64,000 nt of DNA from Microcoleus sp. (GTDB lineage: Bacteria > Cyanobacteriota > Cyanobacteriia > Cyanobacteriales > Microcoleaceae): the NCBI GenBank assembly GCA_042408215.1, contig JAYFMW010000028.1, forward strand, positions 320,001 to 384,000, written 5' to 3'. The position numbers and the translations under genes are program-made. Below are positions 53,724 to 61,811 of this stretch, in pieces. Position 1 is the stretch's first letter. Each line of letters starts with the position of its first letter. A model generated the notes under the pieces. The model was not told the DNA's origin, made no database searches, and was given only the letters and a program-made list of their open reading frames with translations.

Positions 53724-54244
53724 GAAGCTCCTGATACGTTGGGAAACTCAGTCACGAAGAGTGCTGAGAGTAAAAAATTGCCTAGGGACTTGAGTCGCCT
53801 AACTCTTTCAAAGGGAGATCGTTTGTTGTACAATAATTGTAGATCAGTTTTTATTAGCCTTAGATGCAGACCAGATCTGTCAAATGCAAGCTTCAAGTCC
53901 CTAAAGAGTTGCGTCAAGATATTGACATTACCCTTGAGCGGTTTGCTGACGCTTGCAATCAGATTCTTGACGTTGCAAAAGAGGCTAAACAATGGAACAG
54001 GACCAAGTTGCATCACCGGCAAAGGGAAGAGTTATCGCAACGGGAAGAAGTTCAAGTGTGGGCACTGCGGATTTGAACATGATGCTGATGTAAATGCGGC
54101 TAAAAATATAGCTGCTTTGGGGTTGTCCGTAAGCCAGCCCGAAAGTCCGGGGATGACGTGCCAACTACAAGGTCAATTGGCTTGGTTCGGTGGTACGTTC
54201 GATCGGGGCTGAAGCTCAGTCACAAAGGGTGCTGAGTTGCTTAC
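53722..54244 (+). mobile_element. tnpB: IS200/IS605 element with internally deleted tnpB
   Basis: Hairpin CTCAGTCAC-n5-GTGCTGAG near both ends; TnpB N-terminus (MQTRSVKCKL) joined out of frame to zinc ribbon/RuvC-III (FKCGHCG..DADVNAAKNI). Confidence 0.85.
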
Positions 54245-55647
54245 CAAAAAAAATGGGCGGAGCGAAGCGCAGGGCTAAAGCCCCGTCCTTTTAGGACGGC
54301 TTTAATTTCAACCATAAAGCGTAAAGAATTGTGAAATAAGCATATTTTATGGGTGTAGTGATTTGTCAATGTGATACCATAATTGCATGATAGTAATAGA
54401 GTTCAAGTTGAAAGGCAAAACACAGCAATACCGGGTCATCGACGAAATGATCCGCACATCGCAATTTGTCCGAAATAAAACTCTTAAATACTGGATCGAC
54501 AATCAAGGAGTTAAACTATCCCACCTCTACAAACAATGCGCCATTATGGCAAAAGAGTTTGAATGGGCAGGCAAACTTAACTCGATGGCACGTCAAGCCT
54601 CGGCTGAACGTGCCATTTTTGCTATCCAACGTTTTTTCGCTAATTGTAAAGCTAAAAAACCCGAAAAAAAAGGCTACCCAGTATTCAAAAAACACACTCG
54701 TTCCGTAGAATACAAGACATCAGGATGGGCGCTTTATGCCGCTCAAAGATGCCTCACCTTTAAGGACGGTTTGGCTGCTGGGACGTTTAAATTAATTGGT
54801 AGTCGGGATTGGCATTTCTATGCGCCCGATGAGATTAAACGAGTTAGGGTTGTACGGCGTGCCGACGGCTATTTCGCTCAGTTTTGCATCAATGGGTCGC
54901 GGAGGGAGGGATCTATTCCAACTGGTAAAGCTATTGGAATAGATGTCGGATTAAACCATTTTTATACCGACAGCGATGGTAGCACAGTTCCCAACCCTCG
55001 ACATCTTCGCAAAAGCGAAAAAGCGTTGAAGAGGTTGCAGAAACGAGTTTCTCGAAAGAAGAAAGGTTCTAGCAATCGTAAAAAAGCGATTAACAAGTTG
55101 GGAAGGAAACACTTGAGGGTCAGCAGGCAGCCCATTCGAATACGCGAGCGGGTAAACTCCAAGACTTCGCCATAAAGACGGCGTTGTGCGCGGTAAAATC
55201 TAGCGATTTTGTAGCCTAGGTCGAGCTTCAGGTGAAGAATATGGTTAAGAACCACAAGCTTGCCAAATCAATTAGTGACGCAGCTTGGAATCAGTTTGCT
55301 GTCGGGCTGCAATACTTTGGGAAAGTGTACAGGAAAACAGTAATCGCTGTTGCTCCTCAGTACACTTCTCAAGATTGCTCAGTCTGTGGCAATACTGTTA
55401 AAAAATCGCTGTCAATTAGAACTCATGCTTGCGGCAGCGGTGCGGTATTAGATCGAGATCTTAACGCCGCGATCAACATTTTGGCTAAGGGATTGAAAGC
55501 CCGTGCAGGAATCACTTTAAATACGGTGGGGCACACCGAAATTAACGCTTGGGGACAGACCGATCTCTACTCGTTGGTGGCAGCATCAACCAGCAAATCG
55601 ACTGATTGAACCAAGAATCCTCGTGCCTTCAGGTCGAGGAGTGTCAA
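54245..55647 (+). mobile_element. tnpB: IS200/IS605 (IS1341-like) element with frameshifted tnpB pseudogene (54387-55609)
   Basis: GIDVGL RuvC-I, zinc ribbon, DRDLNAAINI; small insertion near 55130 and TAG near 55216; left-end hairpin near 54280, right end ...GAGTGTCAA. Confidence 0.92.
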
Positions 55648-55734: not shown

Positions 55735-57324
55735 ATGACAACGATAAAAATCGACATGAATGAAATTAGTCAAACGGTGCAACCAGAAGGAATGGTAAGG
55801 GCCGGAGTTCAAAAAATTCGCACCATGATAGAGGGCTTTGACGACATCAGTCATGGCGGGATGCCGATCGGCAGAACTACCTTAGTCAGCGGCACGTCGG
55901 GAACGGGAAAAACCTTATTTGCCGTACAATTCCTCTACAACGGAATCACCCATTTTGACGAAGCTGGAGTCTTCGTAACTTTTGAAGAATCTCCAACAGA
56001 TATTATTAAAAATGCTTGTAGTTTCGGCTGGGATTTAACCAAGTTAATTGATGAAGGTAAGCTGTTTATTTTAGACGCTTCCCCCGATCCTGAAGGTCAG
56101 GATATCGTGGGAAATTTTGATTTATCAGCCCTGATCGAACGAATTCAATACGCAATTCGCAAGTACAAAGCAAAGCGGGTTTCTATAGATTCGGTGACAG
56201 CAGTATTTCAGCAGTACGACGCTGCATCGGTGGTGCGACGAGAGATTTTTCGTTTAGTTGCTCGCCTCAAACAAGTAGGGGCAACTACAGTCATGACTAC
56301 CGAACGGGTGGAAGAATACGGCCCGGTGGCCCGGTTTGGAGTGGAGGAGTTTGTGTCGGACAACGTGGTGATTGTTCGCAACGTTTTGGAAGGAGAACGC
56401 CGCCGCCGGACTCTGGAAATTTTGAAGTTGCGAGGTACAACTCACATGAAAGGTGAGTATCCTTTTACCATTACTAATGACGGGATTAATATTTTTCCCT
56501 TGGGGGCGATGCGATTGACTCAAAGATCTTCTAATGTTCGGGTTTCTTCCGGGGACAAAACTCTCGACGAAATGTGCGGCGGCGGTTTCTTTAAGGACTC
56601 GATTATTTTGGCTACGGGTGCGACGGGAACTGGCAAAACGCTGTTGGTAAGCAAGTTTTTGGAGAATGCTTGCATGAATGGCGATCGGGCCATGCTGTTT
56701 GCTTATGAAGAGTCGCGGGCGCAGTTGTTCCGCAATGCTTATTCTTGGGGCATTGATTTTGAGGAAATGGAACATAAAGGTCTGTTAAAAATTCTTTGTA
56801 ATTACCCGGAATCTGCTGGTTTGGAAGACCATTTGCAAAATATTAAATCAGAAATTGCTGATTTTAAACCGTCTCGAATTGCGATCGATTCCCTGTCAGC
56901 TTTAGAACGGGGAGTTAGCAATAATTCATTCCGGCAATTTGTGATCGGGGTGACTGCTTTCGCCAAGCAGGAGGAAATTACAGGCTTTTTCACGAATACA
57001 AGCGATCAGTTTATGGGTTCTAATTCGATTACGGATTCCCATATTTCTACGATTACTGACACGATCATCATGCTTCAGTATGTGGAAATTCGAGGGGAAA
57101 TGTCGCGGGCAATTAATGTGTTTAAGATGCGCGGTTCCTGGCACGACAAGGGAATTCGGGAATACACTATTACTGATAAGGGGCCGGTAATTCGGGATTC
57201 TTTCCGCAGTTACGAACGGATTATCAGTGGTTGTCCGACTCGAATTACAATTAATGAGAAGAGTGAATTATCGCGGATTCTTAAGGGTGTGCAAGGTCAA
57301 GACAATGACGATGACGATATTTAA
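55735..57324 (+). CDS. kaiC: Circadian clock protein KaiC
   Basis: Two RecA-like domains (GTSGTGKT, GATGTGKT), DSHISTITD phosphosites. Confidence 0.98.
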   Translation: MTTIKIDMNEISQTVQPEGMVRAGVQKIRTMIEGFDDISHGGMPIGRTTLVSGTSGTGKTLFAVQFLYNGITHFDEAGVFVTFEESPTDIIKNACSFGWDLTKLIDEGKLFILDASPDPEGQDIVGNFDLSALIERIQYAIRKYKAKRVSIDSVTAVFQQYDAASVVRREIFRLVARLKQVGATTVMTTERVEEYGPVARFGVEEFVSDNVVIVRNVLEGERRRRTLEILKLRGTTHMKGEYPFTITNDGINIFPLGAMRLTQRSSNVRVSSGDKTLDEMCGGGFFKDSIILATGATGTGKTLLVSKFLENACMNGDRAMLFAYEESRAQLFRNAYSWGIDFEEMEHKGLLKILCNYPESAGLEDHLQNIKSEIADFKPSRIAIDSLSALERGVSNNSFRQFVIGVTAFAKQEEITGFFTNTSDQFMGSNSITDSHISTITDTIIMLQYVEIRGEMSRAINVFKMRGSWHDKGIREYTITDKGPVIRDSFRSYERIISGCPTRITINEKSELSRILKGVQGQDNDDDDI

Positions 57325-57483
57325 TAGACATCTCCAACAAATAATCTCAAGCTTTTTCTAGACTCGGGGGTGAAGTATTTGGCCGACAATGTATGTTTCT
57401 TTCTGCTTGTTTTATGTCCAAATGCTTCACCCCCCCCAGCAGAGGCGCTCCGGGCGGGAGCTTGGATTTTTCCCAGATGTCTA
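57325..57483. mobile_element. MITE with TAGACATCT...AGATGTCTA termini
   Basis: 9-bp terminal inverted repeat, internal GGGGTGAAG...CTTCACCCC palindrome. Confidence 0.7.
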
Positions 57484-57496
57484 AGAACAGAATACC

Positions 57497-57531
57497 AGAG
57501 CCCCGCAGCACTTTAAGTGCTGCGGGGCTCT
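57497..57531. terminator. Strong hairpin downstream of kaiC
   Basis: AGAGCCCCGCAGCACTT-T-AAGTGCTGCGGGGCTCT; no clear T-tail. Confidence 0.55.
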
Positions 57532-57687
57532 AGGGGATCAGACAGGGCGATCGGATTTTACGTTTAATTAGAGCGACCTACTTAATTAAGGGAAAAACGG
57601 GAGAAAAGAAGCGCTAACAGCACCTTGCTGTTACGCTTTCATAACTTAAACCCAGTCCTAGACTGAATTTACGATGATCTTTCTCAA

Positions 57688-57707
57688 CGAGCACGGAGGG
57701 GATTGAA
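57688..57707 (-). other. att site: displaced 3' end of tRNA-Arg(CCG)
   Basis: Minus strand TTCAATCCCCTCCGTGCTCG matches tRNA end TTCAAATCCCTCCGTGTTCA. Confidence 0.85.
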
Positions 57708-57863
57708 TTAGCGCTTAGTTCTCAATCGACGATTTTACGTCGTTATAGCCATTTTTTGTACCCACTCTGAAAGTCCTGTTTTGGATTTGAGCGAATACCG
57801 AGCGATTTGCTGTACGCTGTCTACAGCAAGCAAACTCGCCATTCTTATACTAGGGAGCGAAAG

Positions 57864-59297
57864 ATGAGCGAAAAATCTGAGCCAGTCACAGCAAGCGCCA
57901 CCGCTGACTACCTTGTTGGCTATGAGCGGATTTTGGACTACTTTAAACAAGCGCAAAAAGAATGCCCCAAAGGGGTAGGCCTAAAAAGAGACAGGAAAGC
58001 TAGCGGTGGTTACATAACCCTGCAATTCAAGTTAGGTAACAAGCGGGTCAACAAAACTTGTGGGTGCTACCTGACGATGCAAGGTATCACTGATGCTCTG
58101 AGGAAAGCTCATCTAGTTGCTAGTGCTTTACAATCCTTCTCTAGCGAGAGTCGATTTTTAGTCTGGTATGATGATGTTATTTTGAACAAAAATGTTATCA
58201 AAAATGATTTGATGACGTTTGGCGAGGCCATAGCAAAAGTAGAGAAAGAATACTGGGATGGGCGCACTAAACGCCGTCAGCAACGTGACAGGAGTAATGC
58301 TAGTCATCAAAACTCCTGGGGATGTGTTTACGGACAGTATTTTAAACTGTTGCCCGGTGAGGCTATTGTAAATTCGGTAGATATTCTGTCTATCATTCAC
58401 ACTAAAAAGCAAGGGACTAAATGCTTCAAGAACTGCTTGTGTGCAATGAAAAAACTAGCTGAGACTATTGGCGATACTGAGTTGTTGTGCAGGCTGAAAG
58501 AAATTGACGGTACGCAAACAGAATTCCGAGAAGACCTTCAAACTTTATCAGTCGATGACTTTTTGAAGCTTCGCAATCAGGTTCTCAGTGTTTCGGATGA
58601 CAAGCGATATCATTTGGAATCGCGCAAACGGTGGCTGTGGGTATTTTCAATGCAGATGGTGTATGGCTTTCGGGTTCACGAAGTTTTTGCTATTCAGAAC
58701 ATTGACCAACCTTTTAAGACAAAGGATGGTGTTGTTATTCCGGCACTGATTGAGCCAAACAATATAAGAATGATTGCCGTAGTCGGTGATAAGACACTAT
58801 TAGACACGACGACCAAAACTGGCTACCGACTGTGTGTACCAATGCTTCCCCCTACTCACACTGACTTGATAGAGTGTCTAGAAATTAAGGCGGGTAAATT
58901 GCCTGATATTGGAACACTATCAAGGAACCCGAAAACAATTGCTGGACTATATAGTGACCGTGCATCAAATATCTTAAGAAGATGGAACAAAGGTTTTACT
59001 CAATCTCATGCGTTACGTCACCTAGCTAATCTCAACGGTCAAATGGCGGGAATATCTCAGGAAATGAGAGCTAAAAGTTTGGGACATTCACCACAGATAA
59101 ATGAAACTGTTTACAAGCGTCGCGCTAGTACGAAAACAACGATTGATTTATTAACTCAGTCCACAACCGAAGCTATTCCTTTAGGTAGTGCAATTCTGGT
59201 GCTTAAACAGTTAGGTAGTGACGTGAAAAATATCAATTTGCTGGCCGCTATTTACGGCATTACGCCCGATGAAGTGATGGAGTTACTCACTGAATAA
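57864..59297 (+). CDS. Tyrosine recombinase / integrase
   Basis: Catalytic set YGFRVHE (R), TKTGYR (K), HALRH, LGH, VY; adjacent to tRNA. Confidence 0.88.
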   Translation: MSEKSEPVTASATADYLVGYERILDYFKQAQKECPKGVGLKRDRKASGGYITLQFKLGNKRVNKTCGCYLTMQGITDALRKAHLVASALQSFSSESRFLVWYDDVILNKNVIKNDLMTFGEAIAKVEKEYWDGRTKRRQQRDRSNASHQNSWGCVYGQYFKLLPGEAIVNSVDILSIIHTKKQGTKCFKNCLCAMKKLAETIGDTELLCRLKEIDGTQTEFREDLQTLSVDDFLKLRNQVLSVSDDKRYHLESRKRWLWVFSMQMVYGFRVHEVFAIQNIDQPFKTKDGVVIPALIEPNNIRMIAVVGDKTLLDTTTKTGYRLCVPMLPPTHTDLIECLEIKAGKLPDIGTLSRNPKTIAGLYSDRASNILRRWNKGFTQSHALRHLANLNGQMAGISQEMRAKSLGHSPQINETVYKRRASTKTTIDLLTQSTTEAIPLGSAILVLKQLGSDVKNINLLAAIYGITPDEVMELLTE

Positions 59298-59319
59298 TTA
59301 GACACAAAACTTTACAGTC

Positions 59320-59560
59320 CCCCTATTGACCAATTGCACGCCCGTAACGGCGACTTGGGGTTAGATGTGCAGATGTTGCAATCGGAGTTGGAGGCGGTCA
59401 AGAGCGATCGCCCTGAAGTTCAAGAATCCGTCCCGCAGATTTTCCTGAACCAGGCGGCCTACTCAACCAGTTGAGGACGCGGCGCAAAAAATCCAGGGCG
59501 GACTTGGCTGATATGGAAGTGGTTTTGGAAATACTCGGAACCGACGGGAGCGAAATTTGA
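59320..59560 (+). pseudogene. Frameshifted remnant of a small mobile-element protein
   Basis: Fragment LLNQLRTRRKKSRADLADMEVVLEILG without an intact start. Confidence 0.4.
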
Positions 59561-59626
59561 GCGGAAAATAAGAATATCGGTCATATAGTTAACCTGAAAC
59601 TCTTACACCATAAAAGCAATACAAAA

Positions 59627-59699
59627 TGAACACGGAGGGATTTGAACCCCCGACCCTCAGGACCGGAACCTGATGCTCTATCCACTGAGCTACGTGCCC
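59627..59699 (-). tRNA. trnR: tRNA-Arg (anticodon CCG)
   Basis: Cloverleaf GGGCACG TA GCTC AGTGGATA GAGC A TCAGG TTCCGGT CCTGA GGGTC GGGGG TTCAAAT CCCTC CGTGTTC A. Confidence 0.96.
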
Positions 59700-59711
59700 T
59701 CAACTTTTATG

Positions 59712-59720
59712 AGTATAGCA
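59712..59720 (-). promoter_or_regulatory. Extended -10 promoter of tRNA-Arg
   Basis: TGCTATACT about 12 nt upstream of the tRNA. Confidence 0.6.
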
Positions 59721-60064
59721 CGTCTTGCTGAAAATAGCTAGGACGATCGCAAATTCGATCGCCAGCCTCTGAACCCTTTGACTAATGGGGGCTCTACTCG
59801 CCCTTGGCCGATCGGTATTAGGTGTTTATGGACAGCAGACACGGCAAATTACACTTAAATTGTCAAAATCCTACAGAGATTTTCGATCAAATAATCAGCT
59901 GCAACATCGCCAATACTAGATTTATATTCGATCGGGCTTGAGTATGTACCGCTAATAGGGCTAAAGCAATTCGACTTGAGCTATGCGGCTGGCTTCGGGG
60001 TCCTATTTTCCTTCTTCTCGGCTGAAGAGTCTGCTAGACTAACTTAATAAAACCCTTAAACCTC

Positions 60065-60223: not shown

Positions 60224-60812
60224 ATACCAATGCTCCAAAGTTATGCAACAGTAGCCAGGGCCGATCAAATATAATCCCATGCGGTTATAGATGCTATTGT
60301 TTCCATTGAAAATTATTCAATAAAAGTGCGAAGTTTTGCTTAAAGAGCATCTAAATTATCATGAATTCCGCAACTCAATTCTTGTTTTATATCAAATCCT
60401 ATCTTCATCGGAATAGTAAATTCGAGTTAACTGTTAACTGTCAACAGTTAACTGTTAACTGTTAACTGTCAACCGTCAACAATCACCTGACGGTGCAACC
60501 GGAATTGATATTATATAGTGCCACACTCTCTCAATCGGATTCAATTCCGGGCTGTATGGTGGTTGACAAATTAGTAAAACATCCAGCAGGTATTTTTCAG
60601 CTACTACTATGATGAAACCTACCACGATCCAATTGAACAACATTTAGATGTTCTGGATATTCAGATGCTAATTTTTTTCAGAATATTTGAAAACATAGAC
60701 CATCTAGATGTGAGAAATATAGCCAAAAACTTTCTCCTGTTTGTGGGGAAACTGCTCCAGATAAATAGTAAGCTTTAAAAATCCATTGAACTTTACCTAT
60801 TGGTTAGACTCC
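60223..60812 (-). mobile_element. Degenerate IS630-family transposase 3' half with nested MITE (60389-60511)
   Basis: Minus strand: GAVSPQTGESF, VVQLDRGRFH, PPYSPELNPIERVWHY, ASITAWDYI with stops; terminus TTGGTATA. Confidence 0.85.
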
Positions 60813-60814
60813 AA

Positions 60815-61519
60815 AACCAATTTATCAGTGTTGTCACCCAAGTTGAAGCCGCCCTAGCTAGCACTCCTGGGCCTTATTTCCTCGCTGAATTTGGCACTGC
60901 GGATGTGATCTTTACGCCCTACGTCGAACGGATGAATGCCAGTCTTTACTATTACAAAGGCTACTCGATGCGGGCAGAAAACCCGCGCTTTGCAGACTGG
61001 TTTGCGGGGATGGAAAGCCGCCCTACCTATCGCGGTACTCAAAGCGATTTTCATACTCATGTCCACGATTTACCGCCTCAAATGGGGGGCTGTTTTGAAA
61101 ACGGCGAACCGCAGATGTTACTCAATAAAGCTCGCGTGGATAATGGGCCTTGGGCTGGACTCCCGGATGTTATGTACCCAGAACCGGAAACCTCGCGCGC
61201 TGAAGCACTCCACCGCGTTATTAAGCATCATCGCAACATTATTAAAGTCAATCCTGCGGATGACAACTTATTTGATGAGGCTTTGCGTTGTGCTTTAACT
61301 TTGATGATGACTGATGAAGTTTGTACGCCTCCGGTTGGTTCTGATGGGGCTTTGCGGTATTTGCGCGATCGGGTGAATGTGCCCCGTGATATGTCGATTT
61401 ACGCGGCCAAGCGATTGAGGGAAGCGTTGGAGGAAACGGCGGCTTTGGTGGGTGATGGCCAAGGTGCTCCGATTCTGCTGAAGCATCGGCGAGATCAAGA
61501 TCCGGCTAATTTTGTGTAG
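60815..61519 (+). pseudogene. 5'-truncated second copy of the GST gene (45633-46832)
   Basis: Protein nearly identical from NQFISVV to DPANFV*; N-terminal CPYC domain absent. Confidence 0.9.
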
Positions 61520-61811
61520 TGTTAATCCGTAGGGTGCGTCGCTGCGAGATATTGGATATAATTTGCAGATTGACGGGTGGCGACGCACCCTAATTGCTAA
61601 TTGTGTGTAGTGTTAATCCGTAGGGTGCGTCGCTGCGAGATTTTGGATATAACTTGCAGATTATAGATGGCGACGCACCCTAATTGCTAATTTTGTGTAG
61701 TGTTAATCCGTAGGGTGCGTCGCTGCGAGATTTTGGATATAACTTGCAGATTATAGATGGCGACGCACCCCTAATTGCTAATTTTGTGTAGCGTTAATCC
61801 GTAGGGTGCGT
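61505..61811. repeat. Three and a third tandem ~91-bp units (GST end + REP doublet)
   Basis: GCTAATT.TGTGTAG recurs at 61505, 61596, 61686, 61777; single copy at 45561-45648. Confidence 0.92.

What the first reader, a model, noticed from the sequence alone, without database searches (positions are those of the whole stretch)
59627..59699. Integration appears to have given tRNA-Arg(CCG) the alanine identity elements G3.U70 and A73
Seen: the tRNA gene ends CGTGTTC-A, pairing with GGGCACG to give G3.U70 (plus G2.U71) and discriminator A73; the displaced end at 57688 reads CGTGCTC-G (G3-C70, G73); the shared core CCCTCCGTG lies just upstream of both differences. Known: G3.U70 is the major AlaRS determinant, A73 contributes, and AlaRS does not read the anticodon. 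Inference: the element-supplied 3' end could cause partial Ala insertion at CGG codons or weaken the tRNA, and excision would reverse it: a mobile-element switch on tRNA identity. Caveat: G2.U71 may block AlaRS.
Basis: partly seen in the sequence, partly recalled or inferred. Interest (0 to 1): 0.72.

Follow-up and report, generated by a model that had tools for sequence, protein, structure and literature searches.

The report
Rare alanine-type wobble in arginine tRNA
The only tRNA that reads CGG in this cyanobacterium carries a real, rare one-letter change that creates the alanine recognition mark, but it looks like a recent, mildly harmful point mutation at an ordinary mobile-element site rather than an identity switch brought by the element.

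Summary
The bases are as described. tRNA-Arg(CCG) at 59627-59699 (-) has G2.U71, G3.U70 and A73; a displaced 3' fragment at 57688-57707 has C70 and G73; a XisA/XisC-like integrase gene lies between. The interpretation mostly fails. A73 is native: 74 of 76 genus tRNAs have it, including element-free ones, as do the displaced ends of the 10 closest elements. G73 is most likely drift in the dead copy (A seen in all 4 laid runs, in one only as the minor form). G2.U71 is also native. Only U70 is new (1 of 76); G3.U70 occurred in none of 118 other class genomes, 39 GTDB hits or 37 metagenome hits. U70 is not an error: a related strain in an independent run has it, paired with A3, which suggests compensation. 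Related elements restore C70, so U70 is best read as a point mutation in the element-derived tail. Arg determinants (A20, C35, G36) are intact; Ala-type G2-C71 and G4-C69 are missing; the two T-loop crossover copies differ at 2 of 7 bases, so excision is probably poor. Low-level Ala mischarging is untested and not excluded.

The parts
59627..59699 (-). tRNA-Arg(CCG), single copy; CCA not encoded; restored (attL) side of the element
   Evidence: ARAGORN; 1 CCG gene among 50 calls; cloverleaf is the minimum-energy fold, -26.3 kcal/mol
59630..59630 (-). U70, the only derived base; pairs with G3 (59697) as G3.U70
   Evidence: 1 of 76 genus tRNAs; also present in run X1, where 59697 reads A3
59627..59627 (-). 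A73 discriminator, native to the genus
   Evidence: 74 of 76 genus tRNAs; present in element-free loci
59629..59629 (-). U71 of the native G2.U71 pair
   Evidence: 76 of 76 genus tRNAs; 110 of 118 other class genomes
59681..59681 (-). A20, main ArgRS determinant (followed by U20a); anticodon CCG at 59664-59666
   Evidence: read from the sequence; role from PMC9976931 passages
59640..59646 (-). T loop TTCAAAT, probable 7-bp crossover region on the tRNA side
   Evidence: displaced fragments beside family integrases begin at TTCAA whichever tRNA is targeted; crossover position inferred
57688..57707 (-). Displaced tRNA 3' fragment (attR): T loop changed to TTCAATC, C70, G73
   Evidence: 57688 reads A73 in X3, X9, X12 and in the minor form of X1; 57701-57702 match the tRNA in X3 and X9
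57864..59297 (+). 477-aa XisA/XisC-like tyrosine recombinase, frame intact (an upstream TTG at 57807 gives 496 aa)
   Evidence: ESM Atlas score 0.99 to XisAC / phage-integrase clusters; invariant R270, H382-x-x-R385, H408, Y417 in 22 aligned homologues; 41 of 78 other genus genomes hold a homologue. No Pfam, NCBIfam, PHROG or PDB sequence hit
57708..57863 (.). Right element arm and integrase leader; mosaic, closest to elements that target tRNA-Ser(TGA)
   Evidence: 92-94% to Ser-site arms against 81-84% to Arg(CCG)-site arms
59298..59626 (.). Left element arm behind the tRNA
   Evidence: about 80% to the arm of the 9.2-kb element of G031; similar arms follow four other tRNAs of this genome
55735..57324 (+). 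kaiC, the host gene on the far side; lies 130-280 bp from the tRNA in element-free relatives
   Evidence: Pfam KaiC, E 4e-125

Best explanation
An ordinary T-loop-targeting tyrosine-integrase element, now shrunk to its integrase gene (1.9 kb), sits at the 3' end of the single tRNA-Arg(CCG) gene. Shown: the genus tRNA is G2.U71 / G3-C70 / A73, and related elements restore exactly that end. Inferred: after integration one C-to-U change at position 70 arose in the restored tail of this species' lineage, while the displaced copy drifted on its own (A73 to G, two T-loop changes). The tRNA should still be charged mainly by ArgRS, since A20, C35, G36 and A73 are intact. The tandem G.U top of the stem is about 2.5 kcal/mol weaker and offers AlaRS its main mark in a poor context (U71 instead of C71, C4-G69 instead of G4-C69). 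The allele is therefore probably slightly harmful, through weaker folding or processing or trace Ala mischarging, and is being repaired by G3-to-A in at least one related strain. It is the short-lived wobble intermediate between the two stable states of this tRNA family, G3-C70 and A3-U70, not a switch.
For: A73 in 74 of 76 and U70 in 1 of 76 genus tRNAs. Nearest relative by kaiC (G008, 98%) is C70/A73 with the same kind of left arm. 10 of 10 closest elements (integrase 90-92%) have C70/A73 displaced ends; in the 3 fetched with both ends on one locus the ends agree at 61-73. The 3:70 pair is Watson-Crick everywhere else: class sample 105 G3-C70, 13 A3-U70, 0 G3.U70 of 118; GTDB scan for G3.U70 found 0, the same scan with A or G at 3 found 39, all A3-U70; metagenome scan 30 G3-C70, 7 A3-U70, 0 G3.U70 of 37. 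Run X1 has the same element (1 difference over 57611-58764) and U70, with A3. Fold energies -26.3 against -28.8. CGG is 18% of Arg codons and stands at conserved Arg columns; none of the 28 CGG columns checked held Ala in a relative.
Against: The order of events is not observed; U70 could have arrived with the element. The A3 strain is one contig in one run. A3-U70 regains only about 0.5 kcal/mol over G3.U70 in the fold model (the compared gene also differs at 57 and 73), and another wobble, U4.G69, of similar cost is tolerated in 2 of 76 genus and 4 of 118 class genomes. So G3.U70 looks specifically avoided, which hints that AlaRS does see it. Contigs of X3 and X12 with G3 break exactly at position 70, suggesting the allele persists in several populations (their base there is not shown).
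Confidence: 0.7

Rival explanations
1. Hybrid by transfer: the element excised from a host with an A3-U70 tRNA, carried U70 in its attP and integrated into a G3-C70 gene, creating G3.U70 in one step.
For: Position 70 lies 3' of the T-loop crossover, so the element supplies it. The displaced end has C70. A3-U70 is a common natural state (39 GTDB hits) and exists with A73 in run X1. Integration that alters a tRNA is on record (tRNA-Cys, 10.64898/2025.12.09.693284; tRNA-Leu, PMC4908127). The element is a mosaic.
Against: 38 of 39 GTDB A3-U70 tRNAs have G73, not A73. None of the other 75 genus tRNAs has A3 or U70. X1's main form shares the same displaced end (G73, changed T loop), so it is the same insertion event, not a donor. 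No U70-A73 end in metagenome or viral scans.
Confidence: 0.14
2. Whatever its origin, the allele mistranslates: AlaRS charges a measurable share (about 1% or more) of this tRNA and Ala enters at CGG codons, which is why the state is purged or compensated.
For: G3.U70 with G1-C72 and A73 is present; G3.U70 transplants confer Ala charging in other tRNAs (PMC9976931 passages); a spontaneous C70U in yeast tRNA-Pro gave about 6% Ala (PMC5389508 abstract). The genome has one full-length AlaRS whose alignment shows the Asn and Asp motifs that read G3.U70 (motif assignment recalled). G3.U70 is absent from all comparison sets while U4.G69 is tolerated.
Against: Bacterial Ala identity also lists G2-C71, G4-C69 and G20; the first two hold in all 5 tRNA-Ala genes of this genome and neither holds here. 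In the archaeal complex the C71 amino group contacts the Asn359 backbone (PMC11392972 passage), and U71 lacks that group (inference). ArgRS keeps its full set and competes. No Ala in relatives at CGG columns (a weak test for a recent allele).
Confidence: 0.2
3. A reversible switch: excision and re-integration toggle the tRNA between an Ala-tinged and a pure Arg form.
For: The integrase frame and catalytic residues are intact. Excision would put C70 back. Some tyrosine recombinases tolerate overlap mismatches (IntDOT; PMC2817482 passages).
Against: The T-loop copies differ at 2 of 7 bases, and most tyrosine recombinases need identity there. No other same-strand ORF of 60 aa or more and no replication gene in the 1.9 kb, so excision would be one-way loss. 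No skip joint across the element in the 4 runs laid (contigs drop rare forms). 10 of 10 related elements change nothing at 70 or 73.
Confidence: 0.03
4. U70 is a sequencing or assembly error.
For: It is a singleton among genomes. No raw reads of the source strain were available.
Against: Run X1, a different haplotype with 12 differences upstream, has the same base at 59630.
Confidence: 0.03

Closest known systems
Tyrosine-integrase islands in tRNA genes, T-loop/junction class (Islander, PMC4383910, passages read)
   Same: Full tRNA on one side, 3' fragment in the same orientation on the other, integrase between; the element restores the gene; homology starts at the T loop.
   Different: Only 1.9 kb (below Islander's 2-kb filter), no cargo, displaced copy decayed; the restored tail carries one unpaired change.
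37-kb Anabaena variabilis element in tRNA-Cys (10.64898/2025.12.09.693284, part 1 of 2 of the text read)
   Same: Cyanobacterial tyrosine-recombinase element in a single-copy tRNA; the integrated form differs in sequence from the native tRNA.
   Different: There the four changes are compensatory, the crossover is proposed in the anticodon loop and excision was measured. Here one uncompensated change touches another synthetase's identity pair, and excision is untested and probably hindered.
ICEApl1 altering tRNA-Leu(TAA) (PMC4908127, passages)
   Same: Imperfect att repeats make an altered tRNA.
   Different: There the element carries another species' tRNA end; here relatives of the element carry the host-type end.
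G3.U70 mistranslating tRNA variants, e.g. yeast tRNA-Pro C70U (PMC5389508, abstract only)
   Same: The same single change, C70U, creates the AlaRS mark in a non-Ala tRNA.
   Different: Laboratory-selected, multi-copy eukaryotic gene. Here a natural, single-copy bacterial tRNA with G2.U71 and C4-G69 around the pair; charging untested.
XisA/XisC excisases (Pfam 38 XisAC_N PF27551, XisAC_2nd PF27132)
   Same: Nearest Atlas clusters (0.98-0.99); similar length; tyrosine-recombinase motifs.
   Different: Targets tRNA T loops, not nif or hup genes; no direct HMM hit in the Pfam copy at hand.

Membership tests
tRNA-targeting tyrosine-integrase element | Full tRNA plus same-orientation 3' fragment flanking the element | tested here: met
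tRNA-targeting tyrosine-integrase element | Tyrosine recombinase gene inside | tested here: met
   Atlas 0.99, invariant R / H-x-x-R / H / Y, homologues beside tRNA fragments. HMM libraries gave no hit; the structure model was too poor to use (pLDDT 48.7)
tRNA-targeting tyrosine-integrase element | Empty site in relatives | tested here: met
   10 genus genomes with kaiC within about 280 bp of the tRNA; none is of the same species
tRNA-targeting tyrosine-integrase element | Matching crossover regions, able to excise | tested here: not met
   T loops differ at 2 of 7 bases here, against intact in 8 of the 10 closest elements; crossover position inferred, excision not assayed
Bacterial tRNA-Ala identity set | G3.U70 | tested here: met
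Bacterial tRNA-Ala identity set | A73 | tested here: met
   native to the genus and also an Arg determinant
Bacterial tRNA-Ala identity set | G2-C71 | tested here: not met
   G2.U71 here; G2-C71 in all 5 tRNA-Ala genes of the genome; listed in PMC9976931 Table 1
Bacterial tRNA-Ala identity set | G4-C69 and G20 | tested here: not met
   C4-G69 and A20 here; the genome's own tRNA-Ala genes have G4-C69 but not G20
Bacterial tRNA-Ala identity set | Charged by AlaRS | not testable with these tools
   needs an aminoacylation assay or proteomics
Bacterial tRNA-Arg identity set | A20, C35, U/G36, A/G73 | tested here: met
   A20 at 59681, CCG at 59664-59666, A73; set from PMC9976931

The most novel reading that the evidence does not exclude
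A natural bacterial population carries, in its only CGG-reading tRNA, a G3.U70 allele that travels with a mobile element's tail and causes measurable Arg-to-Ala mistranslation at CGG codons (18% of Arg codons, many at conserved KaiC arginines). Selection is caught repairing it to A3-U70, so the element would act as a carrier of tRNA acceptor-stem alleles between strains and AlaRS avoidance would explain why this wobble is never fixed.
Probability: 0.15. Interest if true: 0.7.

Novelty: new variant of a known kind. Interest (0 to 1): 0.3.

Why it matters
The switch idea falls, but a clean natural test case remains. The 3:70 pair of cyanobacterial tRNA-Arg(CCG) moves between G-C and A-U, and the G.U step between them was found nowhere else in the sets searched. 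Here it is present in a single-copy gene, with an A3-compensated sister strain. Three transcripts (G3-C70, G3.U70, A3-U70) would show directly whether G2.U71 shields a non-Ala tRNA from bacterial AlaRS, and whether alanine-identity avoidance rather than stem stability purges this wobble. It is also a caution: a displaced tRNA fragment is not a faithful record of the pre-integration gene.

Tried and rejected
Integrase family by HMM: Pfam, NCBIfam, PHROGs and PDB sequences gave nothing significant; the AlphaFold model had mean pLDDT 48.7, so no fold search was run. Scans for other U70-A73 ends: metagenomes 0, viral contigs 0, GTDB G3.U70 0; these tools may leave out records near the window's genome, and the patterns are fixed-length (the class pattern matched 119 of 261 genomes). 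No integrase hit within 2.6-3 kb of the 76 metagenome and GTDB tRNAs says little, because the gene normally lies 8-9 kb away. The idea that G73 is this lineage's native base was tested by kaiC similarity and rejected: the two G73 genomes are among the most distant (86%, 85%), the nearest (98%, 93%) have A73; a relic of the older cyanobacterial G73 is not fully excluded. Flank 57590-57687 has no match in the other 78 genus genomes, so no same-species empty site was available. Codon test showed no Ala at CGG columns but cannot detect a recent allele. Promoter scan: 2 hits against 4.0 expected, uninformative. Earlier scan notes held nothing on this locus or allele.

Full report
Observation. ARAGORN finds one tRNA in the window, tRNA-Arg(CCG) at 59627-59699 on the minus strand. 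Its acceptor stem reads G1-C72, G2.U71, G3.U70, C4-G69, A5-U68, C6-G67, G7-C66, with A73 and no encoded CCA; the cloverleaf is the minimum-energy fold. A 3' fragment lies 1939 bp away at 57688-57707 with C70 and G73. It is the only CCG tRNA among 50 ARAGORN calls in the genome, and the 3' motif occurs only twice. The neighbours are kaiA, kaiB and kaiC (kaiC by Pfam; kaiA and kaiB recognised from their sequence), so the host is a cyanobacterium; Microcoleus-like is my guess, no call names it.

The element. Between the two copies is one long ORF, 57864-59297. Pfam, NCBIfam, PHROGs and PDB sequences give no significant hit and the structure model was unusable. The ESM Atlas places it at 0.98-0.99 among XisA/XisC-like and phage-integrase clusters, and R270, H382-x-x-R385, H408 and Y417 are invariant in 22 aligned homologues (reading these as the tyrosine-recombinase catalytic set is recalled knowledge). 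Homologues occur in 41 of 78 other genus genomes. Upstream of nearly all of the 29 fetched homologues lies a tRNA 3' fragment that begins at the T loop, for several different tRNAs. So this is a T-loop-class tRNA-integrating element of the kind catalogued by Islander (PMC4383910, passages), and everything 3' of the T loop in the restored gene is element-derived (crossover position inferred). Related elements at the same site span about 8.5-9.2 kb; this one is 1.9 kb and a mosaic.

A73 is native. A pattern search matched 76 of 79 genus genomes: 74 have A73, 2 have G73, all 76 have G2.U71, and only this genome has U70. Ten genomes have kaiC within about 280 bp of the tRNA, leaving no room for an integrase: 8 have A73 and 2 have G73. 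Those two rank 72nd and 74th of 75 relatives by kaiC similarity (86%, 85%), while the nearest (98% and 93%) have C70/A73. The displaced ends of the 10 closest elements (integrase 90-92% identical) all end C70/A73, as do their hosts' tRNAs. In 4 of 19 listed runs laid on 57300-60000 (four studies, all contigs), position 57688 reads as A73 in X3, X9, X12 and the minor form of X1; the main form of X1 has G as here. G73 is thus most simply drift in the unused copy, like the two T-loop changes at 57701-57702, which X3 and X9 lack.

U70 is real and rare. X1's contig over 59461-60000 has 12 other letters, all listed; none is at 59630 or 59627, and one is at 59697, which makes A3. So an independent strain with the same element (1 difference over 57611-58764) has U70, closed as A3-U70. 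X3, X9 and X12 have G3. Contigs of X3 and X12 end exactly at 59631, a branch at position 70, which suggests two alleles; their bases and that of X9 are not shown (314 rows were cut). Elsewhere the pair is always Watson-Crick: 105 G3-C70 and 13 A3-U70 among 118 other class genomes matched (119 of 261 matched the fixed-length pattern, counted by eye); 0 G3.U70 in GTDB, where the control pattern found 39, all A3-U70; 30 G3-C70 and 7 A3-U70 among 37 metagenome hits. These scans may leave out records close to this genome.

How it most likely works. Shown: the host-type and element-type tails are both C70/A73 in relatives. Inferred: one C-to-U change arose in the restored tail of this lineage. The fold model puts the stem 2.5 kcal/mol above the C70 form (-26.3 against -28.8). 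A second change at exactly the partner base in X1 is 1 of about 219 possible single substitutions in the gene, which points to compensation (rough reasoning, one contig). The Arg determinants A20, C35, G36 and A/G73 (PMC9976931, passages) are all present, and the genome has one ArgRS and one AlaRS. Of the bacterial Ala set (A73, G2-C71, G3.U70, G4-C69, G20) only A73 and G3.U70 hold, whereas all 5 tRNA-Ala genes here have G2-C71 and G4-C69. In the archaeal AlaRS complex the C71 amino group contacts the protein (PMC11392972, passages); U71 lacks it. I found no measurement of bacterial AlaRS on G2.U71 with G3.U70 in the listings or the passages. CGG makes up 18% of Arg codons in 1923 long ORFs and stands at conserved Arg columns, with no Ala in relatives at any of 28 columns checked. 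Strong mischarging would therefore be costly; the tRNA is expected to work mainly as an Arg tRNA.

Against my reading. A3-U70 recovers only about 0.5 kcal/mol in the model, and the U4.G69 wobble, of similar cost, is tolerated in 2 of 76 genus and 4 of 118 class genomes. That G3.U70 in particular is never fixed fits avoidance of AlaRS. The same C70U change gave about 6% Ala in yeast tRNA-Pro (PMC5389508, abstract). I put measurable mistranslation at about 0.2. I also cannot exclude that U70 came in with the element (about 0.14): integration that alters a tRNA is on record for tRNA-Cys of Anabaena (10.64898/2025.12.09.693284, part 1 of 2 read) and tRNA-Leu of Actinobacillus (PMC4908127, passages). 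But 38 of 39 A3-U70 genomes have G73, and X1's main form shares this genome's displaced end, so it is the same insertion and not a donor.

The switch. Excision would need recombination between T loops that differ at 2 of 7 bases (intact in 8 of the 10 closest elements). Most tyrosine recombinases need identity there, with exceptions such as IntDOT (PMC2817482, passages). The element has no replication gene, and no contig in the four runs skips it (contigs drop rare forms). A reversible switch is unlikely (about 0.03).

Novelty. The element is a new member of a known kind. The allele is a rare natural variant; I saw no report of a natural bacterial tRNA-Arg with G3.U70 in the listings (titles and abstract starts only; subscription papers are not in the library, and no supplements were read). 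Verdict: observation largely right, A73 and the switch not supported, U70 real and worth a simple charging assay. Interest 0.3.

Noticed in passing
run X1, window position 59697: A related strain with the same element has A3 opposite U70, a probable compensatory change; none of the 76 genus tRNAs has A3.
   Followed up: partly
tRNA-Arg(CCG) across the class: A73 occurs only in this genus (3 of 3 others sampled) while the other 115 matched genomes have G73, so A73 is a genus-level derived state; 8 genomes have G2-C71 with A3-U70.
   Followed up: partly
window 57699-58000: The element's right arm and integrase start are 89-95% like elements at tRNA-Ser(TGA), while the rest of the integrase is closest to Arg(CCG)-site elements: a recombinant element. 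Runs X3 and X9 carry a different arm at the same site.
   Followed up: partly
G000:C7:305683-305782; C4:1-136, C10:147519-147659, C27:8107-8323, C29:6585-6749: An orphan right arm with a tRNA-Leu(TAA) fragment and no integrase hit, and left-arm copies behind tRNA-Leu(TAA), Arg(TCT), Ser(CGA) and Gly(TCC): remnants of the same element family at other tRNAs.
   Followed up: partly
G000:C6:1061538-1061625 (-): The only tRNA called with anticodon CCT is 88 nt with a long variable arm, more like a Leu or Ser tRNA body than a usual tRNA-Arg.
   Followed up: no
window 53740-55609: kaiB and kaiC are separated by broken IS200/IS605-type transposase pieces (Pfam OrfB_IS605 on 54387-55172).
   Followed up: no
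window 61487-61811 and 60426-60481: A 90-91 nt tandem repeat (3-4 copies) behind the GST-like gene, and a 14-nt palindromic tandem repeat.
   Followed up: no
integrase family, 41 of 78 other genus genomes: A widespread XisA-like integrase family with no hit in the Pfam, NCBIfam or PHROG copies at hand, whose members target the T loops of at least six different tRNAs.
   Followed up: partly
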